Of a stretch of DNA of 64,000 nucleotides, positions 8,335 through 48,823 are shown piece after piece. Positions within the stretch are counted from its first letter, which is position 1. Every line of letters begins with the position of its first letter. The translations under genes and the position numbers were made by a program. Below the pieces are notes generated by a model. It saw only the letters and a list, made by a program, of their open reading frames with translations, was not told where the DNA came from and searched no databases. Source of the DNA: an uncultured Planctomycetia bacterium (lineage in GTDB: Bacteria; Omnitrophota; Gorgyraeia; Tantalellales; Tantalellaceae); assembly GCA_964565425.1 (NCBI GenBank), contig CAZMEZ010000004.1, positions 24,907 to 88,906 of the forward strand, given 5' to 3'.

Positions 8335-8346
8335 CGCGTGACGGTT

Positions 8347-13926: not shown

Positions 13927-13961
13927 GGATATAGGCCGTTTTGGCGGTCATGAAGCATTAA

Positions 13962-13996: not shown

Positions 13997-14032
13997 GACA
14001 TTTGACGTTGAATAACAGGATCCGGAGAACGC

Positions 14033-18723: not shown

Positions 18724-18727
18724 CGTT

Positions 18728-20613: not shown

Positions 20614-20629
20614 CGGGCAAGGGCGTATC

Positions 20630-22035: not shown

Positions 22036-22049
22036 CATAGGAGAAGTAT

Positions 22050-23249: not shown

Positions 23250-23273
23250 CCATATTAATAAAGGCCGAAAAGT

Positions 23274-24431: not shown

Positions 24432-24484
24432 GCGGGGTCCACTGCAGGACAAGGGAGCCGCTGAAGCCGCGGGAAAGAGGCGAT

Positions 24485-27050: not shown

Positions 27051-27051
27051 A

Positions 27052-31943: not shown

Positions 31944-31960
31944 AGGGGTATATCCGGGAC

Positions 31961-33394: not shown

Positions 33395-33412
33395 GGCCGG
33401 ATATCAAGGAGG

Positions 33413-34351: not shown

Positions 34352-34361
34352 AGGCAAAAAG

Positions 34362-36185: not shown

Positions 36186-36199
36186 GGCGGGTAAAGATC

Positions 36200-37942
36200 A
36201 TGGAACGATCGGGTAAAGAACTGATAATACTTGTGGATAAGGCCGGGCTGGCGGCCGCAGGCCGTTCGCTCCTGGAAAGGTGCGATCGTGTTGCCATGAC
36301 CCCGGACGCGATACTCGCCTTAGAGGAAGAAGGTCTGTCCTTTTCCACGTTCGACGATATTTACGGGTACAGGCAGTTTCGCGAGGACAACCTAAGGATG
36401 ATGGATGAGACGGAAGACCTGTTCAGGGATCTGGACAGGAAATACAGCGCGTCTTTGGAGTATCCCCGCGCTTTTACGGGCAATATACTGTGGTTCCTGG
36501 TGTTCTTTGCCAACGCCCTTTATCTTTCGAAAGTGTGCCGGTGGGCTAAGAACAACTATACTAAGGTCCATTTGGCCGGTAGCGCTAAGTACGACAGGCC
36601 GCTCAGGATAGACCTGGATTTCTCCGAAAGGGGGCTCGCGTTCTGCGATTTTAACCGGGAACTGGCCAGCAAGGTCAGCATGCTGAGGGATGTTTTATCC
36701 CCGGATTGTTACTGGAGCGCCAATGCCCCCCAAAGGGGCGCCGGACGGCCCGTCGGTAGACAACAGCTGTTATTTTCCGCGAGGCAGACGGTCAAAAAGC
36801 CTTTAGTCAGAGCGAGAGCGTTTTTTGAAGAACATTCAGGTAAAGATAAGGATGTCATATTCGTAGTGCGGGACAGCAATGAAGTGAATTTCGTAAAAAG
36901 ACACATGGGGGATGTTGCTCTCAAGAAACCGCTCAAGAGAATGCTCGAGGACGCGTTCGAAGGGCGTTTGGAGAAGCAGGATATCGAATGCTCTTTCGAA
37001 ACAGAGATCCGGAGTTTCGCGTTGAAATGGTTCCCGGAATTCGAAAAGCGCGTCCTGGAAGCGTTCGAGGCCTATTTTGAAAAAGCGGTTCGCTGTCTCC
37101 GGGCATTTATGGACAAAGTAGAGGAAGCGTTCAAAGCGGACTCCCCGAAGGCGGTGTTCTATTCGTTTTCCCCCAACAGGGTATACGAGGACGTGCTCGC
37201 TTACGCGGCGAACGAGAGGAACATACCCGTGTTCGCTTTCTGGCATGTCGGTTCTCATGAAAAAGACAAGGATATTTACGCGAAGTACCTGGAGAGCAAT
37301 GAAAACGTGAAAATGGATGTCCTGGAGGTAAGCAAATTCTACAACCTGCATCTGGACCGGAAGAGCGGCAGGGGCAAAGGTATTTTATACTTCCCCGGGA
37401 TCTTTAATTCATACAACTACAAGGATCTCATGGTCAACGTTCCCGATAGAGCGCTTTTTGAGGTTACCAGGGACATAGTGGAGGTTGTCGGCGAGTTCGG
37501 CGCGGAGATGGATATAAAGATACACCCTAATGACGAAGAATACAATTATACGTATTTCAGCAACCTGCTGAAGGCAAAGGGGGCCGGGAACATCGGCATA
37601 CTCAGGGGATTCCCGGCGGAAAAGATAATGAAGCATTACAGTCTCTTTATATTCGATTACGCCGGGACCAGCTTGATACCGGCTGCCGGGGTTTTCGACA
37701 CGCCGGCTATATTGTATATAACCGACGATAGTGTTTTGAGGGAGAAAGCGATCCCGGACCTGGAGAGAAAGTTCCATATGGCTCGGCACAGATCCGATCT
37801 TGTGAAGCACATTAGCCTTTATGTGCAGGGAAAACTGGAAACAAAAATAACGGGTGAGCACGCTTTCCCGGCAGGGGAAGAAGCCCCTTGCGTTAAGATG
37901 GCAGGGTATGTGAAGAGCGTGATCGATACCGTAAAAACCTGA
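36200..37942 (+). CDS. hypothetical protein; possible GT-B-like transferase distantly related to 29491-30996
   Basis: No family recognised. DIKIHPND ... IFDYAGTSLIPAAGVFDTPAILYITDD has the same motif order as the other orphan. Confidence 0.25.
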   Translation: MERSGKELIILVDKAGLAAAGRSLLERCDRVAMTPDAILALEEEGLSFSTFDDIYGYRQFREDNLRMMDETEDLFRDLDRKYSASLEYPRAFTGNILWFLVFFANALYLSKVCRWAKNNYTKVHLAGSAKYDRPLRIDLDFSERGLAFCDFNRELASKVSMLRDVLSPDCYWSANAPQRGAGRPVGRQQLLFSARQTVKKPLVRARAFFEEHSGKDKDVIFVVRDSNEVNFVKRHMGDVALKKPLKRMLEDAFEGRLEKQDIECSFETEIRSFALKWFPEFEKRVLEAFEAYFEKAVRCLRAFMDKVEEAFKADSPKAVFYSFSPNRVYEDVLAYAANERNIPVFAFWHVGSHEKDKDIYAKYLESNENVKMDVLEVSKFYNLHLDRKSGRGKGILYFPGIFNSYNYKDLMVNVPDRALFEVTRDIVEVVGEFGAEMDIKIHPNDEEYNYTYFSNLLKAKGAGNIGILRGFPAEKIMKHYSLFIFDYAGTSLIPAAGVFDTPAILYITDDSVLREKAIPDLERKFHMARHRSDLVKHISLYVQGKLETKITGEHAFPAGEEAPCVKMAGYVKSVIDTVKT

Positions 37943-39649
37943 ATGGAGCGGCCTAAAATGGAAAAAATAAGAGATATACGCGAAGCTTTTGAAAGACCGG
38001 GATTGGCCCGGATAGTCGGGGCGCACGACGGGCTTACGGCGAAGCTTGTGGAGAAGAACGATTTTGACGGGGTGTGGGCGAGCGGCCTCGAGATATCCGC
38101 TTCCTACGCTATCCCCGACGCCAGCATTCTCACGATGTCGCAATACCTGGAAAGGGCCTGTGAAATGAAAGACGCGGTATCGATCCCCGTCGTCGCGGAC
38201 TGCGATACCGGATACGGCAATTCAAACAACGTGATACACATGATCAAGAAGTATGAAGCGGCGGGGATCTCCGGAGTATGCATAGAGGATAAGAGGTTCC
38301 CCAAAGTGAACAGCCTTCTCGCGGAAGGAAGGCAGGAGCTCGCTCCGATAGCCGAATTCGTGGGCAAGATAATGGCCGCGAAGAACGCCCAATGCTCGGA
38401 AAGGTTCATGGTAATAGCGAGGGTGGAAGCCCTTATAGCCGGGTGGGGGGAGCAGGAAGCCCTTCTCAGGGCCGAAAAATACGCCGAGGCCGGGGCGGAT
38501 GCCATCCTGATACATTCCAAGGCGAATACCGCCGATGAAGTCATAAGTTTCGCCCGAAAGTGGGACAGGAGGCTGCCTTTGGTCATAGTGCCTACCAATT
38601 ATCCGTCGGTCATGATGGATCTTGGTGAGAAGGAGCTGCTTGATCTGGGCATAAAAATGGTGATCTTCGCGAATCAGGGATTAAGAAGCGCTATCAGGGC
38701 CATAAACGACACTTTCGCCGAGATAAAACAGGCGGGAGGCATACATACGGTGGATGGGAAGATCGTCAGTCTTGATGAAGTTTTCCACCTGCAGGGCATG
38801 ACCGATTTCAAGAAGCAGGAGAAGGAATACCTGAAGTCGGAGAATGAAGATGTTGCCGTTATCATGCCCGCTGCCGGGAAACCGGCCCACCAGGATTCCA
38901 TCGTGCCGCTGCTCACGGACAGGCCGCTTTGCATGATAGATATCAACGGGAAGACCCTGCTTGAAAGGAATCTGAACACCCTGAAGGAATTGCGTATCAA
39001 GAACGTGAATATGGTTGTCGGCTACAAGAAAGAGAGCATCCTCAAGGGGCTCGACCTGGACGGCATAAATCTCATCACGAACGACGATTACAGGACCAAA
39101 CACCTGCTCCATTCCATCATGCTTGCCGAGCGGGAGATGAAAGACAGGACGCTTATAGTCTACGCCGACATACTGTTCGATAAGAATCTCGTCAGCAGGA
39201 TCCTGGGTCTCAAGGAGGACATAGTCCTGGTGGGGGATAACACCTACAAGAAGTATGGGAAACGCAACAAGAAACTCGAGCTGATCAAAACATCCGAACC
39301 CATGACCACCGGCAAACGGGAGATCGCCAACGACGAACTTTTTAGCGTGGAGAGGATCGGCAGGGAAGTGGACGAGGCACCCTCGAATTTTGAATTCGCG
39401 GGCATAGCTTATTTGTCAAGGAAAGGGACGCAGTCGCTGAAAAGACTTTATTGCGAAAGGAAAAAAGAATTGGAAGGCGGGGACGAAAGGTTCCATGAAG
39501 CCGGGGGTTTCGACCAGGCGTCATTTACGGATATAATACAGGAAGCGATCGACAGCGGGATTTCGGTAAAGGTGTTGCCCGTGAATTCCGGTTGGATGGA
39601 GATACATGAATTCGAGGATTACAGGTTCGCCTGTGAAAAGATAAAGTAA
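37943..39649 (+). CDS. pepM: phosphoenolpyruvate mutase fused to a C-terminal nucleotidyl(cytidylyl)transferase domain
   Basis: IVGAHDGLTAKL, ADCDTGYGN and the diagnostic EDK-x5-NS motif (EDKRFPKVNS, nt 38285-38314). From about aa 303 (nt about 38849) an NTase fold begins (VAVIMPAAGKPAH...). Confidence 0.85.
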   Translation: MERPKMEKIRDIREAFERPGLARIVGAHDGLTAKLVEKNDFDGVWASGLEISASYAIPDASILTMSQYLERACEMKDAVSIPVVADCDTGYGNSNNVIHMIKKYEAAGISGVCIEDKRFPKVNSLLAEGRQELAPIAEFVGKIMAAKNAQCSERFMVIARVEALIAGWGEQEALLRAEKYAEAGADAILIHSKANTADEVISFARKWDRRLPLVIVPTNYPSVMMDLGEKELLDLGIKMVIFANQGLRSAIRAINDTFAEIKQAGGIHTVDGKIVSLDEVFHLQGMTDFKKQEKEYLKSENEDVAVIMPAAGKPAHQDSIVPLLTDRPLCMIDINGKTLLERNLNTLKELRIKNVNMVVGYKKESILKGLDLDGINLITNDDYRTKHLLHSIMLAEREMKDRTLIVYADILFDKNLVSRILGLKEDIVLVGDNTYKKYGKRNKKLELIKTSEPMTTGKREIANDELFSVERIGREVDEAPSNFEFAGIAYLSRKGTQSLKRLYCERKKELEGGDERFHEAGGFDQASFTDIIQEAIDSGISVKVLPVNSGWMEIHEFEDYRFACEKIK

Positions 39650-39662
39650 GGGGAAAAAGGAT

Positions 39663-41213
39663 ATGGCCAGGAAAGGAAAGATTTTGATCATGTCCCCGAA
39701 CCTCAAAGGGGTGAAAGGCGGCGTCAACCGTATCCAGCCGAGCCTCGGCGTGGGGTATCTGGCGGCGGTCCTCGAGAGAGAGGGGCATGAGGTCCACATA
39801 CGCGACACGGCGCTCGAAGGGCACGGCAATGAAGTGCTTCTGGAGGACGGGAAGACGATCATGAGGGGGGAATCGGACGCCGAGATCGCGAAATACGTCT
39901 CATCCCTCGGTCCGGATATCGTGGGGATCTCGGTCCTTTTTTCCAATCTCGCGGAACATGCCCATAAGATCGCGAAGATCGTAAAGGAAACGGATCCGGA
40001 TATCAAAGTCGTCATGGGCGGCAATCACATAACCAATTCCGCCCGGGACTATATCTATGCCCTTACGCCGGGAAACGAAGATTCGAATCTCGGCAGGATC
40101 TTTTCCGATATGGAAGACCGTAATATCGATTACGCCATGGCCGGCGAATGTGATTTCCAGTTCGCGGAACTGGTGGACGCTTTATTGAACAAAAAGGACC
40201 CGAAAAACATCGCCGGACTTGTTTACAGGAAGCCCGGGTGCGGGACGCCGGACGCGAACGTTACGGTCAATCCCAATTTCTCGGACAGGCCGGATATAAG
40301 GAGATTGCCGCATCCCGCGCGGCATCTCATGAACATGGAAGGATATTTCAAAATAGATCTTTTTCATTCGACCAAATCGCATTCGGAAAGGGTCCTCAAC
40401 GTCATGGCGGCGCGGGGTTGCCCGGAAAAGTGCGCTTTTTGCACCACTCCTTCTACGTGGGGCAACAGGATCAGGTGGAGGGATCCCCTGGATATTTACG
40501 AGGAGATCGTCTCATGCGTCGAAAGATACGGCATCGGAGAGATCCAGTTTGAGGACGATACGTTAACAAGCAGCAAAGCGCACATAATGGACCTGTGCGA
40601 ACTCATGGAACCCCTGGGCATCCCGTGGTGTACCCCGAACGGGACGAAGGTCAATTATTACATGGAACACCAGCTCGAGATGTTCAGGAGAATGGCGAAG
40701 GCCGGATGCTACCAGGTAACGTTCGGGTGTGAAAGCGGAGTGCAACGGGTACTTGACCGGATAGTCCGCAAGAATCTGCGTATCGAACAGATACCGCGCG
40801 CCATAGATAACGCTAAAAAAGCCGGCCTTTTGGTGCATACCTTCTGGATCGTCGGGTTCCCGGGCGAGACCAGGCGGGAGATGGAAGAGACCGTGGAATT
40901 CGCCGCACGGGCCGGAGCTGACAGTTATTCTATATCCACTTTCTCGCCTTTGCCCGGCACGCCCATTTACAGGCAGGTCGTAAAGGAGAATCTCTGGTGG
41001 GACCCTGAAGTCAGGACGAAAGACATGCTTTTCAGGAATTCCCTTATCAGGGTCGACGAGTTCAGCGGTCCGGAGGAATTCCAGGCGTGGGTGGACGAGA
41101 AGAACGCCCATCTTAACGGTCTACTTGAAGAAAAGGACCCGGAGCGGGCGAAATGGGTGCGCGAGAGCAATGCGAGACGCCTCAGGCACGAGGCGAAGTT
41201 CAAATATACCTGA
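39663..41213 (+). CDS. B12-binding-domain radical SAM protein (paralogue 2; Fom3/PhpK-like by context)
   Basis: B12-domain N-terminus and ARGCPEKCAFCTT. It is wedged between pepM and ppd. Confidence 0.8.
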   Translation: MARKGKILIMSPNLKGVKGGVNRIQPSLGVGYLAAVLEREGHEVHIRDTALEGHGNEVLLEDGKTIMRGESDAEIAKYVSSLGPDIVGISVLFSNLAEHAHKIAKIVKETDPDIKVVMGGNHITNSARDYIYALTPGNEDSNLGRIFSDMEDRNIDYAMAGECDFQFAELVDALLNKKDPKNIAGLVYRKPGCGTPDANVTVNPNFSDRPDIRRLPHPARHLMNMEGYFKIDLFHSTKSHSERVLNVMAARGCPEKCAFCTTPSTWGNRIRWRDPLDIYEEIVSCVERYGIGEIQFEDDTLTSSKAHIMDLCELMEPLGIPWCTPNGTKVNYYMEHQLEMFRRMAKAGCYQVTFGCESGVQRVLDRIVRKNLRIEQIPRAIDNAKKAGLLVHTFWIVGFPGETRREMEETVEFAARAGADSYSISTFSPLPGTPIYRQVVKENLWWDPEVRTKDMLFRNSLIRVDEFSGPEEFQAWVDEKNAHLNGLLEEKDPERAKWVRESNARRLRHEAKFKYT

Positions 41214-41234
41214 TCTTACAAAGGATGATCGAAG

Positions 41235-42392
41235 ATGATAGATTGTTCGGATTTTTTTGAAGCGCTTAAAAACAGGAACCTGGCCTTTTTCACGGGCGTT
41301 CCGGATTCTTTGCTCAAGGATATCTGCGCCTGTATTTCCGATAATACGGGACCGGGAAACAACATCATCGCGGCGAATGAAGGGAACGCCGTCGCTTTGG
41401 CTGCCGGTTATCACCTGGCTACAGGAGAGATAGGCACCGTATACATGCAGAATTCAGGGCAAGGGAACGCGGTCAACCCCTTGACCTCCCTGGCGGACCC
41501 CGACGTTTACGGGATACCCATGCTGATGATCATCGCCTGGAGGGGTGAACCCGGAGGGAAGGACGAACCGCAGCATCTTAAACAGGGAAAGATCACATTG
41601 GAGATGCTCGACACCCTTAATATTCCTTATTCTGTTTTGCCGGAGGACACGATGGGATCCGGGAAGGTCCTGGATAGAGCTGTTGGATATATGGGGGACA
41701 AAAAGGCTCCGTACGCGTTGATCGTCAGGAAGGGCATTTTTGGGCCATATGTTACGCGGGACGTTGATATGCCGACCGGCGGACTTATGAAAGAAGAAGC
41801 GCTTAAACTCGTGGTCGGGAGTGTAGGGGAGCGGGACGTGATCGTCTCCACGACGGGAACGACCTCGAGAGAACTCTTCGAGCACAGGAAAGAGATCAAA
41901 GAAGGCCAGGGGAGGGATTTCTTGACAGTCGGTTCCATGGGGCATGCTTCCTCCATTGCTTTGGGGATAGCGCTCAGGAAGAAGGAACGGGATATTTATT
42001 GTCTGGACGGCGACGGGGCGGCCATCATGCACATGGGAGCGCTCGCCGTTATAGGCGACCAGTGCCCCCAGAACTTCAGACACATCATTTTTAATAACGG
42101 GGCCCATGATTCCGTGGGAGGGCAACCGACTGCCGGGTTCAGGATCGATTTTCCGGCTATCGCCATGGCTTGCGGGTACAAGGCGGCATTCAAGGCGGAA
42201 AACGCGGAGGAGATAGTGGAAAAGATGTCTTTATTGCGGGAGATTGACGGCCCGGCCCTGTTGGAAATAAGGGTAAGGAAAGGCTCGAGAAAGGACCTGG
42301 GACGTCCTTCGGTATCGCCGGTAGAAGGGAAAAAAGCTTTTATGGATTTTTTGTTCGAAAAGGATAAAGATCGCCAATCTCCGGAGGGATAG
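41235..42392 (+). CDS. ppd: phosphonopyruvate decarboxylase
   Basis: MIDCSDFFEALKNRNLAFFTGVPDSLLK start typical of Ppd/AepY, and the ThDP motif GDGAAIMHMG...NNGAHDS. Confidence 0.8.
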   Translation: MIDCSDFFEALKNRNLAFFTGVPDSLLKDICACISDNTGPGNNIIAANEGNAVALAAGYHLATGEIGTVYMQNSGQGNAVNPLTSLADPDVYGIPMLMIIAWRGEPGGKDEPQHLKQGKITLEMLDTLNIPYSVLPEDTMGSGKVLDRAVGYMGDKKAPYALIVRKGIFGPYVTRDVDMPTGGLMKEEALKLVVGSVGERDVIVSTTGTTSRELFEHRKEIKEGQGRDFLTVGSMGHASSIALGIALRKKERDIYCLDGDGAAIMHMGALAVIGDQCPQNFRHIIFNNGAHDSVGGQPTAGFRIDFPAIAMACGYKAAFKAENAEEIVEKMSLLREIDGPALLEIRVRKGSRKDLGRPSVSPVEGKKAFMDFLFEKDKDRQSPEG

Positions 42393-43513
42393 TGTTGAAT
42401 TATCGCATGCCGACGAACATAAATTTTGGTAAAGATTGCCTGGCCGGTCTGGCCGATGTTATCGCGCCTGGCCCGGCGGGGAAAGTCCTTGTTTTCACGG
42501 GAACAGGATCGGCTAAAATTTCAGGCGCTCTTGACCGTATAACCGGGATATTGTCCGGGTGCAACCCGGTCTTTTTTGAAGGTATAGAGCCCGATCCCGC
42601 CTTAGAGAGCCTGGAAAGAGGCATAGAAGTGTGCAGGCGGGAGGTCCCGGACCTCATCATAGCGGTCGGCGGAGGCAGCGTTATCGATTACGCGAAAGCG
42701 GTTTCCGTCCTGGCGGGGGAAGAAGGGGAAGTGTCGGATTTCTTCAGGGGCGGACGGAAACTAAAAGGCGGCAGGGCCGCGTTTATCGCGGTCCCGACCA
42801 CTTTCGGCACTTCGAGCGAGATAACCCCTTACGCGGTGATGACCGATACGGTAAACGGTATCAAGATCACCCTGGAAGACGCGAGCATATTCCCGGACCG
42901 GGCGTTCATTGACCCGAAATTTACCTTGACGATGCCGGAAGAGCTCGTGGCCGCCTCCTGCGCGGATCTCCTGTCCCACGCTGTCGAGGCGTACTGGAAC
43001 GTGAACGCCACGGAACTCACGGATATTTTCGCGTTGCAGGCCATAAGAACTTTCATGGGATCCTACAAGCGGACGTTCGAATCCCCCGCCGATACGGCAG
43101 CCAGGGGAAGGATAGTCCTGGCGGGCATATGCGCCGGATTGGCTTTTTCGAACACCAGGACAACGGCGTGCCACTCCATCTCATATCCGATGACCGCTGT
43201 CTTCGGCGTGCCTCACGGCATGGCATGCGTTTTAACGCTGGGCGAGATGCTGGAGTTCAATTCGACGGCTAGCGGGGAAAAGCTCCTGGCGTTGTGCGGC
43301 GCCATGGATTGCGGTGATGTGCGGGAAGCGAAACAGAAAATAGGATCTATCCTGAAAGATCTGCGCATTAAAACAAGATTAAGGGATTACGGCCTGAAAA
43401 AGGGCGATCTTGCCCTTATCCTGGACAAGGGGTTCACCCCGGAGAGGATGGCGAACAATCCCGGTAAGGTCACCAGGGACGACCTGGAAAAAATGCTGGA
43501 GAGGATATATTGA
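42392..43513 (+). CDS. iron-containing (group III) alcohol dehydrogenase; phosphonoacetaldehyde reductase by context
   Basis: GGGSVIDYAKA and the metal His cluster HSISYPMTAVFGVPHG. The start is uncertain (GTG 42392, TTG 42395 or ATG 42407). Confidence 0.7.
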   Translation: MLNYRMPTNINFGKDCLAGLADVIAPGPAGKVLVFTGTGSAKISGALDRITGILSGCNPVFFEGIEPDPALESLERGIEVCRREVPDLIIAVGGGSVIDYAKAVSVLAGEEGEVSDFFRGGRKLKGGRAAFIAVPTTFGTSSEITPYAVMTDTVNGIKITLEDASIFPDRAFIDPKFTLTMPEELVAASCADLLSHAVEAYWNVNATELTDIFALQAIRTFMGSYKRTFESPADTAARGRIVLAGICAGLAFSNTRTTACHSISYPMTAVFGVPHGMACVLTLGEMLEFNSTASGEKLLALCGAMDCGDVREAKQKIGSILKDLRIKTRLRDYGLKKGDLALILDKGFTPERMANNPGKVTRDDLEKMLERIY

Positions 43514-45000
43514 TGAAGAGACCCGAACAATTCAAGGTGCTGCTGGTCCTGGCTAACGGCTACATGGACTCACTGATACCGCCGAACATCTCGCTCTTGT
43601 CGGCCTACCTGAAGAGAGAAGCTTTCCAGGTAAGGCTTTTCGACACCGTTTTTTATAAAACAAAGGAAAAAACAGGCGACGATGTCCGGTATGAAACGCT
43701 GCAGGTCAAATCGGCTAACGTGGCCGAGTATGGCGTTACGCGCAAAGACGGTGACCTGATCGGGGATTTCAGAAAAGCCGTACTGGAATACGAACCTGAC
43801 CTCGTAGCGCTGTCGACGATAGAGGCTACGCATCCCCTGGGCATGTCGCTCCTGCGGAGCATAAGCGATATCGAGGTTGAAAAAATAGTAGGGGGGATAT
43901 ATACCACTATCAGCCCGGATGAAGTGATAAATGAAGATTGCGTCGATATCATCTGTATCGCTGAAGGGGACAACGCGCTGATCGAGCTGTGTCACAGGAT
44001 GAGGAAGGGAGAGGATTATTCCGATATCCGGAACCTGTGGGTAAAAAAGAACGGTTCGGTGTCCCGGAATGAACTGGCCACCCCCGTAGATATAAATAAA
44101 ATGCCCTTCCAGGACTGGTCGATATTCGACAAAAAACGTCTGTACAAGTCCATGGGGGGAAGGGTCAATATCACGGGATGCATCGAGCTGAACAGGGGAT
44201 GTCCTTATAACTGTACTTACTGCTGCAACGCGAAATTGCATGAACTGTACGAGAACAGGTTCTACCGGGAGCGGGATGTGAAGAACTTCGTGGCGGAAGT
44301 TGTGGAAAAAAAGGAAAAATACGACCTGGGTTATGTCTATGTAGCCGCCGAATCTTTCTTGACGACAAGAGAAGAAAGGTTCGAAGAATTCATCAAGCTG
44401 TACGGGGACGTGAAGATCCCGTTCTGGGTGCAGTCAAGGCCCGAGGCGATCCGGGAAGAAAGGATAGTCAAACTGGGATCCGTCGGCTGCGAGGGTTTGA
44501 GCGTAGGGGTCGAGAGCGGTAACGAGGAATACAGGAGGGACGTGTTGAACAGGAGGATGAGCAACGATGATATCGTCAGGGCGTTCAAGGTCCTGAGCAG
44601 GCATCCGGAGATCAGGAATTGCGCGAACAGCGTGATCGGGTTCCCCGACGAGACCAGGGGGCATATCTTTGAGACCATAGAATTGATCAAGAGGGTGCAG
44701 CCGAGGAACGTGATGGTCCACATATTCAACCCCTACAGGGGCACCAAACTGCACGATATATGCGTGGAAAAAAATTACCTGTCGAAGGACAGTCTGTGCG
44801 GGGACTACAGGATGGACGTGGCCATTGAGAATCCCAACCTGACCAAAGAAGAGATCAGGGGATTGCAGAGGACGTTCGCGTTATACGTGAGGTTCCCGGA
44901 GAACCGTTATAAGGAAATAGAACGCGCCGAGAAATTCGACAAAGAGGGTAATGAGTTGTTCGGGAAATTAAGCGTGGAATTCAAAAGCAAGTATTTATGA
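43513..45000 (+). CDS. B12-binding-domain radical SAM protein (paralogue 3)
   Basis: B12-domain N-terminus and NRGCPYNCTYCCN. ATG 43513 overlaps the ADH stop by 1 nt (the track gives TTG 43510). Confidence 0.85.
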   Translation: MKRPEQFKVLLVLANGYMDSLIPPNISLLSAYLKREAFQVRLFDTVFYKTKEKTGDDVRYETLQVKSANVAEYGVTRKDGDLIGDFRKAVLEYEPDLVALSTIEATHPLGMSLLRSISDIEVEKIVGGIYTTISPDEVINEDCVDIICIAEGDNALIELCHRMRKGEDYSDIRNLWVKKNGSVSRNELATPVDINKMPFQDWSIFDKKRLYKSMGGRVNITGCIELNRGCPYNCTYCCNAKLHELYENRFYRERDVKNFVAEVVEKKEKYDLGYVYVAAESFLTTREERFEEFIKLYGDVKIPFWVQSRPEAIREERIVKLGSVGCEGLSVGVESGNEEYRRDVLNRRMSNDDIVRAFKVLSRHPEIRNCANSVIGFPDETRGHIFETIELIKRVQPRNVMVHIFNPYRGTKLHDICVEKNYLSKDSLCGDYRMDVAIENPNLTKEEIRGLQRTFALYVRFPENRYKEIERAEKFDKEGNELFGKLSVEFKSKYL

Positions 45001-45019
45001 TACCGCGAAGGATCTATCG

Positions 45020-45739
45020 ATGAAAGCAGTTATAGTAGCGGCAGGAAGATCGAGCAGGTTGTATCCATTGACCCTGGACACGCCGAAACCTCTCCTGGAG
45101 GTCAACGGCAGGTCCATCATCGAGCGTTCCATTTCCAATCTTCGCCGGAACGGCATAGACGAGATCGGGGTAGTGGTCGGCTATCTGCGGGAACGGTTCC
45201 TTGAAGCGCTGAAGGACGGGGTGACGTTCATCGATAACCCGCGTTACGCGACCACGAACAACATGGCTTCCCTCTGGTATGCCAGGGATTTCGTGGGGGG
45301 TGACGAGTTCGTGTATCTGCACGGGGACGTAGTGTACCACCCGGACATACTTGAAGATTGCCTGAGGTGCGACGGTGATATCACCCTGATGGTCGACAAA
45401 AAGAAGTGCGACGAAGAGGACATGAAGGTAAGGGTTGCGGGTGACCGCTTCCTGGGATCCAGCAAGGACATACCGGTGAATGAGTCCTACGGGGAGTGGA
45501 TAGGGATCGCTAAATTTTCCGCCAAGGGCGGGAGCCTGGTATTCAGCGAAATAGACAAGGTGCTGGACGACGGGAAGAACAACGCTTATGACACCTATGC
45601 TTTTACGGGACTGGCCATGCGGGATCACCCGATAGATATCTGCCATACGCGGGGCTTGTCCTGGGTCGAAATAGATTTTCCGGAAGAACTGGAAAGAGCA
45701 AAGAAGATATGCCTGGCCATGGAGAAAGAGGGGGAATGA
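45020..45739 (+). CDS. LicC-like sugar/alcohol-phosphate nucleotidyltransferase
   Basis: MKAVIVAAGRSSRLYPLTLDTPKPLLEVNGRSIIE NTase signature. Confidence 0.8.
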   Translation: MKAVIVAAGRSSRLYPLTLDTPKPLLEVNGRSIIERSISNLRRNGIDEIGVVVGYLRERFLEALKDGVTFIDNPRYATTNNMASLWYARDFVGGDEFVYLHGDVVYHPDILEDCLRCDGDITLMVDKKKCDEEDMKVRVAGDRFLGSSKDIPVNESYGEWIGIAKFSAKGGSLVFSEIDKVLDDGKNNAYDTYAFTGLAMRDHPIDICHTRGLSWVEIDFPEELERAKKICLAMEKEGE

Positions 45740-46653
45740 TGAGGTCCTTGAAGGATATCAGGAAAATGCAGTACGAGTATCATTACGAACATGAGATGTG
45801 CCAGTTCTTCAGGGATTGGAAGAAGGCCCCGTACTCGTATTTCAGGGGTATCATGTGGATGGAGATGAGCTCGTTCGTCGTTTATATCCTGCAGAGAACG
45901 AAGGTCACGCCCAATGCCCTCTCGGTCGCTTATTGCCTGTCCGGATTGGCCGGCGGGGTCCTGCTGGCTATCCCGATGAAGGCGACCATCCTTGCCGCTG
46001 TCTTTGTGTTCTTTTTTAAGGCGATATTCGACTGGTGCGACGGCTTGCTCGCGCGCGTAACGCGCAAATTCTCTCTTGTAGGGGATATACTGGATTGCTA
46101 CGGTGCCATTTTGGGAGCCATGGGGCTTGAGATAGGACTGGGATTCTATGTAGCCCACAGATCCGGCATGGCCCTGTATTACTATCTTATACCTCTTATT
46201 CCCTTATTTTTCTTTGGTAAGCTGCACTCGTTCGTGTTTCACATATTTTACAAGAACTATATTACGACCCCGAGATTGAAGGAACTTTTCGGCAAACAGG
46301 CGCGGGATCACGCGGCACAGGCCGCCGGCAGCGGTCCGGAAAAGGTCCTTAGCGGGGGGTTCGAAAAAATAAGGAATTTCATCAACAATTTTCTGGATCA
46401 TCGTTCCAGGACCATAGATCTTATATGCCTGTTGCTTTTGGTGGAGCAGTTCACGCCCGTTTTCGTCACATGGATAGTGTTCCTGGGGTTTGTGATCAAG
46501 GAATTTCTGTTGTTCTCGGCTTCGTTCTATGTCGTAGCGAGGCGCGGGTGGGCGGAAAAAGAGATGGAAAAGAAACTTGCAGAGATATCGGGATCTTTCC
46601 CGCGGGGGGCGGAAAAGAGCGGCGCCGAAGTTCCGGTATCGCCGGAGGAGTGA
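45736..46653 (+). CDS. CDP-alcohol phosphatidyltransferase-family membrane protein (variant motif)
   Basis: Multi-TM protein. The motif FDWCDGLLAR-x8-G-x3-D-x3-A (nt 46030-46107) matches D-x2-DG-x2-AR-x8-G-x3-D-x3-D except that the last Asp is Ala. The ATGA overlaps the upstream gene (the track gives 45709). Confidence 0.6.
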   Translation: MMRSLKDIRKMQYEYHYEHEMCQFFRDWKKAPYSYFRGIMWMEMSSFVVYILQRTKVTPNALSVAYCLSGLAGGVLLAIPMKATILAAVFVFFFKAIFDWCDGLLARVTRKFSLVGDILDCYGAILGAMGLEIGLGFYVAHRSGMALYYYLIPLIPLFFFGKLHSFVFHIFYKNYITTPRLKELFGKQARDHAAQAAGSGPEKVLSGGFEKIRNFINNFLDHRSRTIDLICLLLLVEQFTPVFVTWIVFLGFVIKEFLLFSASFYVVARRGWAEKEMEKKLAEISGSFPRGAEKSGAEVPVSPEE

Positions 46654-46660
46654 TCAATCC

Positions 46661-47701
46661 ATGAACATAGAAAATCTGATAGACAGCCCGTTGAAAAAGG
46701 AAGGGGATATATGGTACGGCCCCGAGGGCGGGTACTGGTCCAACCTGGAGAGGTCCAAGAGTGAGATCTATCTGAAGGACCTGGAGGCCCTGGGTTCGAT
46801 GGAGACCATGAAAAAATATTTTCCGCAGCACGGGGACGTCATTTCCCTGAAAAGGATGGGCGGGGCCGCGACACTTGACCTTGCCCCGGGCGAAAAGGTG
46901 CTTGACGCGGGTTGCATGTGGGGAGCGCTCGCGGTGCCGCTTGCCAGGACACGGGCGGAGGTCATTGCGGTCGACCAGACCAGGGAAAGCATGCTGTTCC
47001 TGGCCAAAAGAAAGGAAGAAGAGGCCCTGGAGAACCTGCACCTGGTGTGCGGCGACCTGAAGGAAATAAAATTCAGGGAGAAGATTTTCGATAAAGTGAT
47101 CGTGAACGGCGTGCTGGAATGGGTCCCCGAAACGCAAACGGTCGAGGTGGGGAATTTTATCAGGCGGAAAAATCCTTTCCTCGAGAACCTGAAACTCCTC
47201 TTCTCGAAGCGGGAGAGAAAGGATTCCCCGAGGGAAAAACAGCGTCGTTTCCTGGGTAAGATACAAAGGGCGCTCAAGGATGACGGCACCCTTTACCTGG
47301 CGATAGAGAACAGGTACGATGTTTTTTATTTCTTCGGTATTCCCGAACCGCATTGCGGGATCAGGTTCATTTCGCTCTTGCCGCGGTGGGCGCAGGACAT
47401 CCTGTCGCTGCTCCTCAGGGGGAGGAGGTTCAGGTTGTGGACTTATTCGAAAAAGGAACTGGAGGACCTGTTGCGCGCGTCCGGGTTCTCGAAAATAAAG
47501 TTCCATTACGCTTTTCCGGATTATAAGGAACCGGAGCAGGTCTTGACGGATGAAGGGATGGAACTCTTCAGGTATTGCAAATCCGCGGGAGATAAGCCGT
47601 TCTATAAAAAGGCCGTCCTGCGGTTTATCGAGGAAGTCGTGTTCAAAAGGATGAAACTGACGTTCTTCGCGCCGAGCTTTATCGTGCACGCGGAGAAGTG
47701 A
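46661..47701 (+). CDS. class I SAM-dependent methyltransferase
   Basis: VLDAGCMWGALAVPLA motif I. The internal ATG 46661 avoids overlap with the upstream gene (the track gives 46577). Confidence 0.7.
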   Translation: MNIENLIDSPLKKEGDIWYGPEGGYWSNLERSKSEIYLKDLEALGSMETMKKYFPQHGDVISLKRMGGAATLDLAPGEKVLDAGCMWGALAVPLARTRAEVIAVDQTRESMLFLAKRKEEEALENLHLVCGDLKEIKFREKIFDKVIVNGVLEWVPETQTVEVGNFIRRKNPFLENLKLLFSKRERKDSPREKQRRFLGKIQRALKDDGTLYLAIENRYDVFYFFGIPEPHCGIRFISLLPRWAQDILSLLLRGRRFRLWTYSKKELEDLLRASGFSKIKFHYAFPDYKEPEQVLTDEGMELFRYCKSAGDKPFYKKAVLRFIEEVVFKRMKLTFFAPSFIVHAEK

Positions 47702-47865
47702 TAAGCAATAAGTGATAGGTGATAGGTAATACGTGGGCGAAAGGCTAGAGGCGAAATTGATTACGAAGATTTTGAAGTAGACGATAATCTTAGATTACGA
47801 AGATGTAATCTCCGCGATCTCATTTAAATCTCGTAATCAACGAAAAACGAATAACGCAATACGAA
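47698..47865 (+). repeat. mosaic spacer B: GTGATAR words, core element and NAACGAA words
   Basis: gtgataa gcaataa gtgatag gtgatag gtaatac, then the core at 47743-47841 (53 nt at 47743-47795 identical to 61580-61632), then caacgaa aaacgaa taacgca atacgaa. Confidence 0.9.
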
Positions 47866-47918
47866 TTTAGCCGGGATCTTAAAGTTTACGGCTTACAGCT
47901 GACAAAGAAAGGTATGAT

Positions 47919-48803
47919 ATGAATATATTCGTGACGGGAGCGGCGGGCATGCTGGCCGAGGATGTAGCGAAGGTCTTTCGGAAAGAAGGACACCGGCTTA
48001 TTTTGACGGACATCAACAAGAGGCTCCCCGATATTGAAGCGCTGGATGTCGCCAATGACGCGGAAGTGCTTCGCCGGATAGAAGAGGCCCGCCCGGATTA
48101 CGTGTTCCACCTGGCGGCGGAAACGAACGTTGACCTCTGCGAGGAAGACCCGGAGCACGCTTACAGGGTGAACGTCAAAGGCACCGGCAACATCGCGCGC
48201 GCTTGCGGCCAGACCGGCGCGGCCATGCTCTATATCTCCAGCGGCGCCATTTTCGACGGGAAAAAAGACGCGCCGTACACGGAGGACGACAAGCCCGCCC
48301 CCGTGAGCGTGTACGGCCGCACCAAGCTTGAGGGGGAATACGAGGTAAAGGGTCTTTTGGAAAAATATTTCATTGTCCGTGCCGGATGGATGATAGGCGG
48401 ATGGGAACTCGATAAGAAGTTCGTGTACAAGATCGTCCGGCAGCTTAAAGAAGGCAGAAAGGAACTCAGGGTCGTGTCCGATAAGTTCGGAAGCCCCACT
48501 TTTACATGGGATTTCGCCGCGAACCTGATGGACCTGGTGAAAAGCGGCAAATTCGGGCTCTATCACATGGCGAATAAAGGCACCTGTTCGCGTTACGATA
48601 TCGCCGTAAAGATCGTGGAATTCATGGGGCTTAAGGGTAAGGTAAAAGTGACCCCGATAAGTTCGGACGAGTTCCCTCTGCCGGCGCCGCGGGCGCGTTC
48701 AGAGATGATAGAGAACCGGAACCTTGAAAAGCTCGGGATAAATAATATGCCGCGCTGGGAGGGATCACTGGCAAGGTATATCAGGGAGAATAAAGACAAG
48801 TAA
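47919..48803 (+). CDS. RmlD-like NAD(P)-dependent sugar-nucleotide reductase (dTDP-4-dehydrorhamnose reductase family)
   Basis: IFVTGAAGMLAEDV, YGRTK, 294 aa. Confidence 0.75.
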   Translation: MNIFVTGAAGMLAEDVAKVFRKEGHRLILTDINKRLPDIEALDVANDAEVLRRIEEARPDYVFHLAAETNVDLCEEDPEHAYRVNVKGTGNIARACGQTGAAMLYISSGAIFDGKKDAPYTEDDKPAPVSVYGRTKLEGEYEVKGLLEKYFIVRAGWMIGGWELDKKFVYKIVRQLKEGRKELRVVSDKFGSPTFTWDFAANLMDLVKSGKFGLYHMANKGTCSRYDIAVKIVEFMGLKGKVKVTPISSDEFPLPAPRARSEMIENRNLEKLGINNMPRWEGSLARYIRENKDK

Positions 48804-48823
48804 GGAGACATTGTTACCGGAAC

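What the first reader, a model, noticed from the sequence alone, without database searches (positions are those of the whole stretch)
37943..47701. Fom-like phosphonate module without an epoxidase: predicted CMP-activated hydroxyethyl/hydroxypropyl-phosphonate delivered to a surface glycoconjugate
Seen in sequence:
- 37943-39649 encodes a PEP mutase (diagnostic EDK-x5-NS = EDKRFPKVNS, nt 38285-38314) fused at about aa 303 to a C-terminal nucleotidyltransferase domain.
- The following genes come with gaps of 21 nt or less: a B12-binding radical SAM protein (CPEKCAFC), phosphonopyruvate decarboxylase (GDGAAIMHMG...NNGAHDS) and a group-III Fe alcohol dehydrogenase.
- Then come a second B12 radical SAM (CPYNCTYC), a LicC-like NTase, a CDP-alcohol-phosphatidyltransferase-like membrane protein and a class I methyltransferase.

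Established knowledge: in Streptomyces fosfomycin biosynthesis four enzymes produce CMP-2-hydroxypropylphosphonate. They are Fom1 (cytidylyltransferase + PEP mutase), Fom2 (decarboxylase), FomC (Fe-ADH) and Fom3 (a cobalamin radical SAM C-methylase acting on CMP-hydroxyethylphosphonate).

Inference: the same enzyme set is present here, with the fusion in the opposite domain order. There is no HppE-type epoxidase, no FomD-type hydrolase and no AEP transaminase in the block. The block instead ends in transferases and sits inside a glycan operon. The CMP-phosphonate is therefore probably transferred intact onto a glycan or lipid. I know of no described case of a C-methylated hydroxyalkylphosphonate head group on a cell-surface polymer.
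Basis: partly seen in the sequence, partly recalled or inferred. Interest (0 to 1): 0.85.

Follow-up and report, generated by a model that had tools for sequence, protein, structure and literature searches.

The report
Surface-glycan phosphonate module with Fom3-like methylase
This is a gene block that most likely makes a hydroxyethylphosphonate, activates it with CMP, alters it with two radical-SAM enzymes (one a distant relative of the fosfomycin methylase Fom3) and attaches it to a cell-surface glycan or lipid; the final chemistry has never been described, but the gene pattern turns out to be widespread in uncultured and marine microbes.

Summary

**What the block is.** It is a co-directional, tightly packed phosphonate module inside a large surface-glycan cluster that also makes a nonulosonic acid.

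**Radical SAM 1 (39663-41213).**
- It is 31% identical over its full length to authentic Fom3 (Q56184).
- It separates with the Fom3 superclade from the window's four other B12 radical SAM genes in 200 of 200 bootstraps.
- It is not a Fom3 orthologue. It belongs to a compact, unnamed sister family found in SAR11, Omnitrophota, Nitrospinota and DPANN archaea.
- 26 of 43 genome loci carrying this family have PEP mutase within 10 kb. The partner is either an Fe-ADH (HEP branch) or an AEP transaminase.

**Radical SAM 2 (43513-45000).** It is unrelated to Fom3 (18% identity), but its close orthologues are also phosphonate-linked. Two radical steps on the phosphonate are therefore likely, so the product may not be plain 2-hydroxypropylphosphonate.

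**The fused nucleotidyltransferase.** It is the common PntC/LicC type (PF12804), not a domain-swapped Fom1.

**Fosfomycin-specific genes.** No HppE, FomD, FomA, FomB or AEP transaminase homologue occurs anywhere in the 64 kb.

**Verdict.** This is a new variant of a known kind (cell-surface phosphonate tailoring), and the product is unproven.

The parts
37943..39649 (+). PEP mutase (aa 1-~300) fused to a PntC/LicC-type (PF12804) nucleotidyltransferase domain (aa ~306-560)
   Evidence: Pfam PF13714 E 2.9e-53 and PF12804 29.4 bits; TIGR02320 303 bits. EDKRFPKVNS at nt 38285-38314. NTase domain against LicC 1jyk: 36 bits. Same architecture at 46-85% identity in L006, L009, L011, L046 and L133.
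39663..41213 (+). B12-binding radical SAM 1: member of an unnamed sister family of Fom3; predicted C-methylase of the CMP-activated phosphonate
   Evidence: Pfam B12-binding plus Radical_SAM, CPEKCAFC. Against Fom3 Q56184: 31% identity, 249 bits, E 2e-80. Best NCBIfam is the Sden_1168 family at 236 bits, then HpnJ, the same order as for Fom3 itself. Tree. AF2 model pLDDT 80 with a class-B fold. PepM lies within 10 kb in 26 of 43 orthologue loci.
41235..42392 (+). Phosphonopyruvate decarboxylase
   Evidence: TIGR03297 476 bits, above the 312 cutoff. 50% identical to Fom2 of the fosfomycin cluster L129.
42392..43513 (+). Group III Fe alcohol dehydrogenase; predicted phosphonoacetaldehyde reductase giving 2-HEP
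   Evidence: Pfam Fe-ADH plus ADH_Fe_C. Best NCBIfam TIGR03405 Phn_Fe-ADH at 252 bits, below the cutoff. 28% identical to FomC.
43513..45000 (+). Radical SAM 2 (B12-like N-terminal domain, marginal score): second phosphonate-linked radical SAM family, reaction unknown
   Evidence: Pfam Radical_SAM 64 bits; B12-binding 31.7 bits against 32.1; CPYNCTYC. 18% identity to Fom3. Among the loci with orthologues of about 48% identity or more (~36, many of them short contigs), about half (17) carry PepM within reach and several more carry Ppd, an AEP-transaminase homologue or an NTase; only one of the ~47 loci at 47% or less carries PepM. The ADH-rSAM2-NTase trio is conserved in L046, L049 and L133.
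45020..45739 (+). Stand-alone LicC/PntC-like nucleotidyltransferase
   Evidence: Pfam NTP_transf_3 and NTP_transferase. PDB LicC 1jyk 66 bits; PntC Tde1415 6pd1 52 bits.
45709..46653 (+). CDP-alcohol phosphotransferase-family membrane protein (likely start 45736); candidate transferase of the phosphonyl group from CMP to an acceptor hydroxyl
   Evidence: PF01066 39.6 bits. At least four hydrophobic segments. The motif DWCDGLLAR...G...D is present but the fourth Asp is Ala, as in the L003, L046, L049 and L059 homologues.
46661..47701 (+). Class I SAM methyltransferase (the ORF opens at TTG 46577; likely start ATG 46661), target unknown
   Evidence: Pfam Methyltransf_11/25/31. Start inferred. 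Orthologues lie next to the CDP-OH gene in L003 and L046.
36200..37942 (+). Unknown 580-aa soluble protein, 0-nt gap to PepM; possible GT-B-type transferase (a lead only)
   Evidence: No Pfam hit except a faint PF07388 polysialyltransferase match, E 0.055. Syntenic in L003, L046 and L049. No significant match to TagF-like proteins. The AF2 single-sequence model is unusable.

Best explanation
The block is a phosphonate 'tailoring' module built into a surface-glycan gene cluster of an uncultured, probably anaerobic bacterium. Its nearest relatives are Omnitrophota MAGs.

**Proposed pathway**
1. PEP mutase makes phosphonopyruvate.
2. The decarboxylase gives phosphonoacetaldehyde.
3. The Fe-ADH reduces it to 2-hydroxyethylphosphonate (HEP).
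4. One of the two LicC/PntC-type nucleotidyltransferases (the fused domain or the stand-alone enzyme) converts HEP to CMP-HEP.
5. Radical SAM 1, from a sister family of Fom3, most likely uses methylcobalamin to C-methylate the CMP-bound phosphonate. The Fom3 precedent is CMP-HEP to CMP-2-hydroxypropylphosphonate.
6. Radical SAM 2, a second and unrelated phosphonate-linked family, performs a further radical modification. This may be another alkylation.
7. The modified phosphonyl group is then passed from CMP to a hydroxyl of a glycan or lipid. The likeliest catalyst is the CDP-alcohol-phosphotransferase-like membrane protein.
8. The conjugate leaves with the glycan made by the surrounding genes (nonulosonic acid genes, glycosyltransferases, ABC exporter).

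**Shown here:** gene identities, synteny, and the Fom3 relationship.
**Inferred:** every substrate, the position and number of methylations, which NTase acts on the phosphonate, the transferase, and the acceptor.
For: - **Domain assignments and motifs:**
- **Operon-like packing:**
- **Conserved synteny:** L046 and L049 at 69-88% identity; the Omnitrophota L133 core at 34-72%.
- **rSAM1 against authentic Fom3:** 31% identity, 249 bits, full length. Both proteins have the same NCBIfam neighbours. Bootstrap support is 100% for [Fom3 superclade + rSAM1 family]. Shared superclade-specific invariant residues include G53, F93, W266, E293, DD298-299, W322, P325, G327 and Y350. The Fom3 clade is among the ~30 nearest 50%-identity clusters in 1.84 billion.
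- **rSAM1 orthologues and phosphonate genes:** 26 of 43 species-representative loci have PepM within 10 kb, and 12 of the 18 loci with full flanks do. A cytidylyl/nucleotidyltransferase accompanies 25 of those 26.
- **rSAM2 orthologues:** also found in PepM clusters, sometimes paired with a Fom3-superfamily enzyme.
- **No fosfomycin-specific genes or AEP transaminase in 64 kb:**
- **Related clusters carry CDP-alcohol-type transferases beside the module:** TagF-like PF04464 in L006 and L024; CDP-OH_P_transf in L048, L059 and L132.
- **Glycan context:**
- **Fom1/Fom3 and PntC precedents from the literature:**
Against: - rSAM1 is only 31% identical to Fom3 and lies outside the Fom3 clade.
- Its family pairs about equally with an AEP transaminase (9 loci) and an ADH (11 loci), so its substrate is not defined by HEP.
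- Six of the 18 full-flank loci show no PepM nearby. One of these, L007 (the same contig as L047), is an orphan copy among transposases.
SD_1168, which defines the nearest named family model, methylates phosphorus in vitro.
- The B12 domain of rSAM2 is marginal and nothing indicates its reaction.
- The CDP-OH protein lacks the fourth signature Asp. In L003 its orthologue occurs without adjacent PepM genes.
- Characterised PntC enzymes prefer AEP.
- There are no chemical data.
Confidence: 0.6

Rival explanations
1. The module does make a surface phosphonate, but rSAM1 does not perform Fom3-type C2 methylation of CMP-HEP. It modifies another position (C1), acts after transfer to the glycan, or methylates phosphorus as SD_1168 and PhpK do in vitro. 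The head group is then not 2-hydroxypropylphosphonate.
For: - The best NCBIfam model for rSAM1 is the Sden_1168 'P-methyltransferase' family, with PhpK also scoring 119 bits.
- rSAM1 is 31% identical to Fom3 and outside its clade.
- Its orthologues serve AEP-type clusters as often as HEP-type ones.
- The review states that the physiological reaction of SD1168 (C- or P-methylation) is unknown.
Against: - Fom3 itself also scores best on the Sden_1168 model (300 bits), so that label says nothing about P- versus C-methylation.
- P-methylation needs an H-phosphinate substrate. Among the window ORFs that were scanned against Pfam, none resembles the enzymes that make one.
- Hydrogen abstraction alpha to OH or NH2 at C2 is chemically equivalent in HEP and AEP, so one family could serve both.
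Confidence: 0.25
2. The two radical SAM enzymes modify sugars of the glycan (for example C-methylation of a deoxy-sugar or a nonulosonic acid). They lie among the phosphonate genes only because the whole region is a glycan cluster rich in such enzymes. The phosphonate attached would then be plain HEP.
For: - The window has three further B12 radical SAM genes with no phosphonate link (31961, 49756, 51245).
- In L003 the rSAM1 orthologue sits after rSAM3/rSAM4 and before a DegT aminotransferase, with no PepM within the 13 kb seen.
- Some orthologue loci lack PepM.
- HEP-modified exopolysaccharide is a known product type.
Against: - PepM lies within 10 kb of rSAM1 orthologues in 26 of 43 loci across bacterial and archaeal phyla with otherwise different neighbours. 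PepM occurs in only ~5% of genomes.
- rSAM2 orthologues are translationally coupled to the ADH (-4 nt here) and keep the ADH-rSAM2-NTase order in L133.
- rSAM1 is far closer to Fom3 (249 bits) than Fom3 is to the window's other radical SAM enzymes. The Fom3 probe scored about 100-116 bits against rSAM0/3/4, and Q56184 scored 71 bits against rSAM2.
Confidence: 0.1
3. The CMP-phosphonate is delivered to a lipid (a phosphonolipid head group) rather than to a glycan. Alternatively, NT2 plus the CDP-OH protein handle an ordinary phospho-alcohol and a different protein (for example unk580) attaches the phosphonate.
For: - The CDP-alcohol phosphotransferase family classically makes lipid head groups.
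- NT2's best NCBIfam hit is the IPCT/DIPPS pair.
- In L003 the CDP-OH and methyltransferase genes occur with an APH-like kinase and no PepM genes between them.
- The window has its own faint APH-like gene at 28059-28817.
- Neorhizobium L132 pairs a Fom3 orthologue with a CDP-OH_P_transf gene outside any glycan context.
Against: - The block is flanked on both sides by glycan genes and an ABC exporter.
- Related rSAM1 clusters carry TagF-like polymer phosphotransferases.
- The CDP-OH gene overlaps NT2 and is conserved with the module in L046 and L049.
Confidence: 0.2
4. The block makes a diffusible fosfomycin-like antibiotic.
For: Homologues of Fom1 (PepM part), Fom2, FomC and Fom3 are all present.
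Against: - No HppE, FomD, FomA or FomB homologue occurs in 64 kb (E > 0.27). The genuine cluster L129 has all of them adjacent.
- The glycan context and the transferase genes also argue against it.
Confidence: 0.03

Closest known systems
Streptomyces fosfomycin early pathway (Fom1, Fom2, FomC, Fom3)
   Same: - PEP mutase, phosphonopyruvate decarboxylase (50% identity), Fe-ADH (28%), a cytidylyltransferase fused to PepM, and a class B radical SAM related to Fom3 (31% identity, full length) are all present.
- The logic of working on a CMP-activated phosphonate is shared.
   Different: - The NTase is C-terminal and of another fold family (PF12804, not PF01467).
- rSAM1 is a sister family, not an orthologue.
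- There is no HppE, FomD, FomA or FomB.
- A second radical SAM, a second NTase, a CDP-OH transferase and a methyltransferase are added.
- The block is embedded in a glycan cluster.
Phosphonyl tailoring (Pnt) clusters with PepM-PntC fusions (Rice et al. 2019, PMC6697681)
   Same: - PepM is fused to a PF12804 nucleotidyltransferase.
- A CMP-phosphonate is the presumed donor for cell-surface decoration.
   Different: - Characterised PntCs act on AEP. Here there is no AEP transaminase but an Fe-ADH (HEP branch).
- Two radical SAM enzymes are inserted.
HEP-type surface phosphonates: Stackebrandtia/Glycomyces HEP-exopolysaccharide and the Nitrosopumilus methylphosphonate cluster (as cited in Li & Horsman 2022, PMC8942020)
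   Same: - PepM-Ppd-ADH gives HEP.
- The HEP ends up esterified on an extracellular polymer.
   Different: Those pathways use HEP as such or cleave it with the O2-dependent MpnS. This one adds oxygen-independent radical SAM chemistry.
Closer Fom3 orthologues without an epoxidase: Omnitrophota L131 (64% identity) and Neorhizobium L132 (58% identity)
   Same: - PepM (NTase-fused), Ppd, Fe-ADH and a Fom3-type enzyme are present, and HppE is absent.
- L131 lies among glycan genes.
- L132 has a CDP-OH_P_transf gene.
   Different: - They carry true Fom3-clade enzymes. The window carries the sister family plus rSAM2.
- None of these clusters has a known product.
SAR11 and Campylobacter ppm-ppd neighbourhoods with 'radical SAM and adenylylsulfate kinase' (noted as unclassified by Li & Horsman 2022)
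   Same: - They hold the same rSAM1 family (51-53% identity in Pelagibacteraceae loci).
- They sit beside nonulosonic-acid genes.
   Different: - They use an AEP transaminase, a Fom1-type PF01467 fusion, an APS-kinase-like gene and a PhyH dioxygenase.
- They have no rSAM2.

Membership tests
Fom3 (cytidylyl-2-hydroxyethylphosphonate C-methyltransferase) orthologue group | Class B architecture: N-terminal cobalamin-binding Rossmann domain plus a CxxxCxxC radical SAM barrel | tested here: met
   Pfam PF02310 58 bits and PF04055 74 bits; CPEKCAFC. The AF2 model (pLDDT 80) best matches AprD4, TsrM, MgmA, CysS, OxsB and TokK.
Fom3 (cytidylyl-2-hydroxyethylphosphonate C-methyltransferase) orthologue group | Sequence falls inside the Fom3 clade (56% identity or more to Q56184; 99% bootstrap) | tested here: not met
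   31% identity to Q56184. The rSAM1 family is a separate clade with 100% support.
Fom3 (cytidylyl-2-hydroxyethylphosphonate C-methyltransferase) orthologue group | Belongs to the wider Fom3-containing superclade rather than to other class B enzymes | tested here: met
   The split of [Fom3 superclade + rSAM1 family] from the window's rSAM0/3/4 and the rSAM2 family appears in 200 of 200 bootstraps. NCBIfam neighbours are the same. A Fom3-clade representative ranks 27th in the whole-library profile search. Caveat: PhpK, SD_1168, HpnJ and MoeK5 are not in the tree.
Fom3 (cytidylyl-2-hydroxyethylphosphonate C-methyltransferase) orthologue group | Encoded with PepM, Ppd, Fe-ADH and a cytidylyltransferase | tested here: met
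   for the window; for orthologues.
Fom3 (cytidylyl-2-hydroxyethylphosphonate C-methyltransferase) orthologue group | Converts CMP-HEP to CMP-2-HPP | not testable with these tools
   Needs an enzyme assay.
Fosfomycin biosynthetic cluster | HppE epoxidase, FomD hydrolase and FomA/FomB kinases present | tested here: not met
   tblastn of these four proteins from the genuine cluster L129 against the whole window gave a best E of 0.27.
PepM-PntC phosphonyl tailoring clusters | PepM with the EDKx5NS motif fused to a PF12804 nucleotidyltransferase | tested here: met
   The architecture is described in PMC6697681.
PepM-PntC phosphonyl tailoring clusters | AEP branch (PF00266 AEP transaminase next to Ppd) | tested here: not met
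   No homologue of the SAR11 AEP transaminase in the window. The only aminotransferases are sugar-type DegT and one class III enzyme 14 kb upstream.
PepM-PntC phosphonyl tailoring clusters | Nucleotidyltransferase uses CTP and a phosphonate | not testable with these tools
   Only homology to LicC and PntC is available.
HEP-branch phosphonate pathways (PepM-Ppd-PhpC/FomC type reductase) | Phosphonopyruvate decarboxylase above the curated cutoff | tested here: met
   TIGR03297 476 bits against 312.
HEP-branch phosphonate pathways (PepM-Ppd-PhpC/FomC type reductase) | Fe-ADH of the phosphonate-associated type | tested here: inconclusive
   TIGR03405 is the best family, but at 252 bits against a cutoff of 423. 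28% identity to FomC.
PhpK / SD_1168 P-methyltransferases | Score above the curated family cutoffs | tested here: not met
   NF038361 236 bits against 575; TIGR04479 119 bits against 600.
PhpK / SD_1168 P-methyltransferases | Pathway that supplies an H-phosphinate substrate | tested here: not met
   No HEPD/PhpD-like or other phosphinate-pathway domains among the ORFs of the 64-kb window that were scanned. The rest of the genome was not seen.
CDP-alcohol phosphotransferases (PF01066) | Pfam score above the gathering cutoff, and a membrane protein | tested here: met
   39.6 bits against 22; hydrophobic segments.
CDP-alcohol phosphotransferases (PF01066) | Full signature DxxDGxxAR...GxxxDxxxD | tested here: not met
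   DWCDGLLARVTRKFSLVGDILDCYGA: the fourth Asp is Ala. The same holds in the L003, L046, L049 and L059 homologues.

The most novel reading that the evidence does not exclude
A compact, widespread sister family of Fom3 (SAR11, Omnitrophota, Nitrospinota, DPANN archaea, Methanosarcinales) would be the general C-methylase of CMP-activated HEP or AEP for cell-surface phosphonates. In this lineage it would be combined with a second phosphonate-specific radical SAM family. The envelope would then carry a doubly modified (for example branched or extended) hydroxyalkylphosphonate of a kind no chemist has yet isolated, made entirely without oxygen. If so, these enzymes would explain what phosphonates SAR11 and many uncultured anaerobes make. 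They could also be the unknown source of the C3 phosphonate esters that, from my memory of Repeta et al. 2016 (not verified here), release propylene from marine dissolved organic matter.
Probability: 0.3. Interest if true: 0.8.

Novelty: new variant of a known kind. Interest (0 to 1): 0.6.

Why it matters
- **Gap in known products.** Cell-surface phosphonates are common, but only AEP, hydroxy-AEP, HEP and methylphosphonate conjugates have been characterised. Li & Horsman note that only two of the ten HEP-type gene cluster families they identified have a known product.
- **What this block points to.** Together with the roughly 100 related loci gathered here, it indicates that radical-SAM alkylation of the CMP-activated phosphonate, so far known only from fosfomycin, is a recurrent and phylogenetically broad step in surface decoration. 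This includes SAR11, whose phosphonate products are unknown.
- **What it enables.** It gives concrete enzymes to test: two families, one of them with a solved precedent reaction. It also suggests oxygen-independent routes to new C-P compounds in anaerobes.
- **Limits.** The window's own cluster is one instance of this pattern, not a unique system, and nothing about the product is demonstrated.

Tried and rejected
- **Exact-sequence look-ups of the window's proteins.** PepM fusion, P0001 and P0224 were not on record, so the source organism could not be named. It is inferred to be Omnitrophota-like from the best hits.
- **Finding a Fom3 sequence.**
  - Fom3 has no solved structure.
  - Two papers on Fom3 and SD_1168 are not held.
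  - One supplement held no Fom3 sequence, and another was only listed, not read.
I used it only as a search probe. It recovered the 90% cluster containing UniProt Q56184 and S. fradiae D2SNF5, and the cluster was confirmed by its genuine fosfomycin neighbourhood. All comparisons use the database sequence P0372, not the probe.
- **First tree attempt.** It timed out and was redone with a faster distance method.
- **unk580.** Nothing usable came from any test:
  - Pfam gave only a faint hit, and the PDB sequence search gave nothing.
  - BLASTP and hhalign against TagF-like neighbours were not significant.
  - The single-sequence AF2 model had pLDDT 34 and is unusable.
- **Methyltransferase against PDB.** Only generic class I hits appeared, with no DhpI-like signal.
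- **Promoter and terminator scan of 31000-49500.** Counts equal the shuffled expectation, so no operon boundary can be called from it.
- **Rfam.** No family hit in the window.
- **Literature.** Searches for hydroxypropylphosphonate on polysaccharides, for PntC with radical SAM, and for propylene from marine phosphonates found no description of this chemistry and no confirmation of my recollection of Repeta 2016.
- **Rejected idea.** The reading that the fusion is a reversed Fom1 is wrong, because the NTase families differ.

Full report
**Observation.**
- The PEP mutase motif EDKRFPKVNS is at nt 38285-38314. The radical SAM motifs CPEKCAFC and CPYNCTYC, and the decarboxylase motifs, are present.
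- Intergenic distances run from -77 to +21 nt inside the block. There is 0 nt to the upstream gene and 217 nt after the last gene.
- Minor corrections: the methyltransferase probably starts at ATG 46661 and the CDP-OH gene at ATG 45736.
- The B12-binding domain of the second radical SAM scores just below Pfam's cutoff (31.7 against 32.1 bits).

**Context.** All genes of the window but one lie on the + strand. The block sits in a glycan cluster of more than 40 kb.
- Nonulosonic-acid genes: PseB-like 17743, DegT 18728, CMP-transferases 19870 and 28814, a HisH/HisF-like pair 20630/21247, and NeuB 27052.
- An ABC exporter (34362), RmlD, GT2 and GT4 glycosyltransferases, a Bac_transf initiating transferase (59783), and three further B12 radical SAM genes (31961, 49756, 51245).
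- No HppE, FomD, FomA or FomB homologue (tblastn E > 0.27) and no AEP transaminase or PhyH homologue (tblastn cutoff 1e-3) occurs anywhere in the 64 kb.
- Rfam finds nothing. The promoter/terminator scan is at chance level.

**Is radical SAM 1 Fom3-like?** Fom3 is not in the PDB, and I could not obtain its sequence from papers.
Its top 90% cluster contains UniProt Q56184, 'Cytidylyl-2-hydroxyethylphosphonate methyltransferase' of S. wedmorensis, and the S. fradiae protein.
- The cluster representative lies in a textbook fosfomycin cluster: Fom3-HppE-FomD-FomA-FomB-Fom1-Fom2-FomC.
- Against the database sequence, the window's rSAM1 is 31% identical over its full length (249 bits, E 2e-80). rSAM2 is 18% identical (71 bits).
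- Fom3 and rSAM1 have the same ranked NCBIfam neighbours, the Sden_1168 family and then HpnJ. This fits the published network in which Fom3, HpnJ, MoeK5 and SD1168 co-cluster.
- I built a 44-sequence NJ tree with 200 bootstraps. The rSAM1 family is monophyletic (100%). The Fom3 clade at 56% identity or more is distinct (99%). [Fom3 superclade + rSAM1 family] separates from the window's other radical SAMs and from the rSAM2 family in every replicate.
- A profile of the rSAM1 family, searched against 1.84 billion cluster representatives, finds only about a dozen representatives of the family itself. A Fom3-clade representative comes 27th.
- A set of residues is invariant in the superclade and absent from the other radical SAMs.
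- The AF2 model (pLDDT 80) has the class B fold.
- Conclusion: rSAM1 is a relative of Fom3, not an orthologue. PhpK, SD_1168, HpnJ and MoeK5 could not be included in the tree.

**What the family does elsewhere.** rSAM1 has more than 120 database clusters at 50% identity or more, from SAR11 single cells, TARA metagenomes, Omnitrophota, Nitrospinota, Magnetococcales, CPR bacteria, Nano- and Woesearchaeota and Methanosarcinales.
- In 43 species-representative genome loci, PepM lies within 10 kb in 26. Among the 18 loci with 8 kb or more on both sides, 12 have it. A cytidylyl/nucleotidyltransferase is present in 25 of those 26.
- The partner enzyme is an Fe-ADH alone in 11 loci, an AEP transaminase alone in 9, both in 2, and neither in 4. 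The family is therefore phosphonate-linked but not HEP-specific.
- Nine of the 43 loci also carry NeuB- or PseB-type genes.
- The SAR11 version has a Fom1-type CT-PepM, Ppd, transaminase, a small cytidylyltransferase, an APS-kinase-like gene, rSAM1 and PhyH. This matches the unclassified 'radical SAM and adenylylsulfate kinase' neighbourhood that Li & Horsman noted in Campylobacter.
- A few copies are orphans (L047).
- In Omnitrophota L003 the orthologue sits after the rSAM3/rSAM4 pair with no PepM in the 13 kb visible.

**Radical SAM 2.** Its family is also broad.
- The closer orthologues (about 48% identity or more) are mostly in PepM/Ppd clusters of both ADH and transaminase types. The more distant ones are not.
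- In the nearest named relative, Omnitrophota L133, the order is PepM-NTase, Ppd, ADH, rSAM2 (72%), NTase, without rSAM1.
- Several rSAM2 loci also carry a Fom3-superfamily enzyme (L073 45%, L088 40%, L072 36%, L048 35%, L115 34% identity to Fom3). Pairs of the two kinds therefore recur.
- The window, with L046 and L049 (69-88% identity, identical order), has both. Two radical steps on the phosphonate are the simplest reading.
- Nothing indicates what rSAM2 does.

**Activation and transfer.**
- The fused NTase is PF12804. That is the PntC/LicC type, which Rice et al. found on 33% of PepMs and showed to prefer AEP in two cases. The Fom1 domain is PF01467.
- NT2 is a more canonical LicC/PntC relative.
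- The CDP-OH protein is a membrane protein whose signature lacks the fourth Asp, as in its orthologues.
- Related clusters place other CDP-alcohol-type transferases beside the module: TagF-like PF04464 in Nitrospinota L006 and gammaproteobacterial L024, and CDP-OH_P_transf in L048, L059 and L132. This supports transfer of the phosphonyl group from CMP to a polymer or lipid.
- In L003 the CDP-OH and methyltransferase genes follow the unk580 orthologue directly, with an APH-like kinase downstream. NT2/CDP-OH could therefore instead serve an ordinary phospho-alcohol.
- unk580, abutting PepM, remains unassigned.

True Fom3 orthologues without an epoxidase exist.
- Omnitrophota L131 (64% identity) has a PepM-PF12804 fusion, Ppd, Fe-ADH, a GT2, a UDP-sugar dehydrogenase and a sulfotransferase.
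- Neorhizobium L132 (58% identity) has a Fom1-type PepM, Ppd, Fe-ADH, PhyH, an EPSP-synthase-family gene and a CDP-OH_P_transf gene.
- The concept 'Fom-like set without HppE feeding a transferase' is thus general. The window is not its purest example.

**Mechanism proposed.** The steps below summarise the best reading.

| Step | Reaction | Proposed enzyme |
|---|---|---|
| 1 | PEP to phosphonopyruvate | PEP mutase |
| 2 | to phosphonoacetaldehyde | Ppd |
| 3 | to HEP | Fe-ADH |
| 4 | to CMP-HEP | fused NTase or NT2 |
| 5 | C-methylation | rSAM1, by analogy with Fom3 |
| 6 | second radical modification | rSAM2 |
| 7 | transfer from CMP to a glycan or lipid hydroxyl | CDP-OH protein, possibly unk580 |
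| 8 | export with the glycan | surrounding glycan and ABC exporter genes |

- Gene identities, synteny and phylogenetic placement are shown. All substrates, the regiochemistry, the acceptor and the role of the methyltransferase are inferred.
- I put about 0.6 on this overall scheme, and less (about 0.3-0.4) on 2-HPP specifically being an intermediate or the product.

**Known or new.**
- I found no report of a C-methylated hydroxyalkylphosphonate on a surface polymer, nor of this radical SAM family's function, in the literature available to me.
- The building blocks are known: the Pnt logic, the HEP branch and Fom3 chemistry. Public genomes hold many instances of the pattern.
- It is therefore a new variant of a known kind. 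It is interesting chiefly because it generalises Fom3-type chemistry to surface decoration across many phyla, including SAR11, and because it offers testable enzymes.

Noticed in passing
window 31961-33394, 49756-51228, 51245-52591: Three further B12-binding radical SAM genes sit in the same glycan cluster, making five in 21 kb. The 49756/51245 pair is syntenic at 65-76% identity in Omnitrophota L003 and metagenome L046/L049. They are presumably sugar-modifying enzymes, and their function is unknown.
   Followed up: partly
window 45709-46653 (motif at aa 108-133): The CDP-alcohol phosphotransferase signature lacks its fourth Asp (DWCDGLLARVTRKFSLVGDILDCYGA, Ala in place of D4). The L003, L046, L049 and L059 homologues share this loss, whereas the CDP-OH protein of L048 keeps D4. 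This may mark a subfamily with a different acceptor or mechanism.
   Followed up: partly
window 36200-37942: A 580-aa soluble protein has a 0-nt gap to PepM and is conserved in L003, L046 and L049. It has no family assignment apart from a faint polysialyltransferase hit (E 0.055). Its C-terminal stretch FDYAGTSLIPAAGVFDTPAILY is reminiscent, from memory, of the DYSS...P-I-I-F-Y motif of TagF-like and GT-B transferases.
   Followed up: partly
window 17743-29500: A complete-looking nonulosonic-acid pathway is present: PseB-like dehydratase, DegT aminotransferase, two CMP-sugar-type cytidylyltransferases, a HisH/HisF-like amidotransferase-cyclase pair, a class III aminotransferase, a GNAT and NeuB. 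NeuB- or PseB-type genes accompany the rSAM1 orthologue in 9 of 43 genome loci, which may hint at the acceptor glycan.
   Followed up: partly
window 28059-28817; L003 4620-5354: Small APH/choline-kinase-like phosphotransferase genes are present (weak in the window, E 6.7e-5; clearer in L003, E 5.7e-7). Together with NT2 and the CDP-OH protein they would form a LicA/LicC-like route for an ordinary phospho-alcohol.
   Followed up: no
L001/L002, L006 10482-11060, L133 10026-10619: An APS-kinase-like gene recurs beside the phosphonate/radical SAM module in SAR11, Nitrospinota and Omnitrophota clusters. The window lacks one. Its role in phosphonate tailoring is unexplained.
   Followed up: no
L132 (Neorhizobium) 5694-14050: A Fom3 orthologue (58% identity) sits with a Fom1-type PepM, Ppd, Fe-ADH, a PhyH dioxygenase, an EPSP-synthase-family (MurA-like?) gene and a CDP-OH_P_transf gene, but no HppE. 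This could be a phosphonolipid pathway or a fosfomycin-like pathway with a different oxygenase.
   Followed up: no
L048 5394-16614: This PepM-NTase cluster has no Ppd. It carries two aminotransferases, an rSAM2 orthologue, a Fom3-superfamily radical SAM, a cytidylyltransferase-citrate-synthase fusion, an HD protein and another NTase. It looks like an unusual phosphonate pathway, possibly proceeding via phosphonomethylmalate or phosphonoalanine.
   Followed up: no
window 1-13926: The upstream part of the window is unrelated housekeeping. It holds GH57-type glycogen genes and GlgC (20-4808), an ArsP-like permease, a sigma-54 activator (8434) and RpoN (10972).
   Followed up: no
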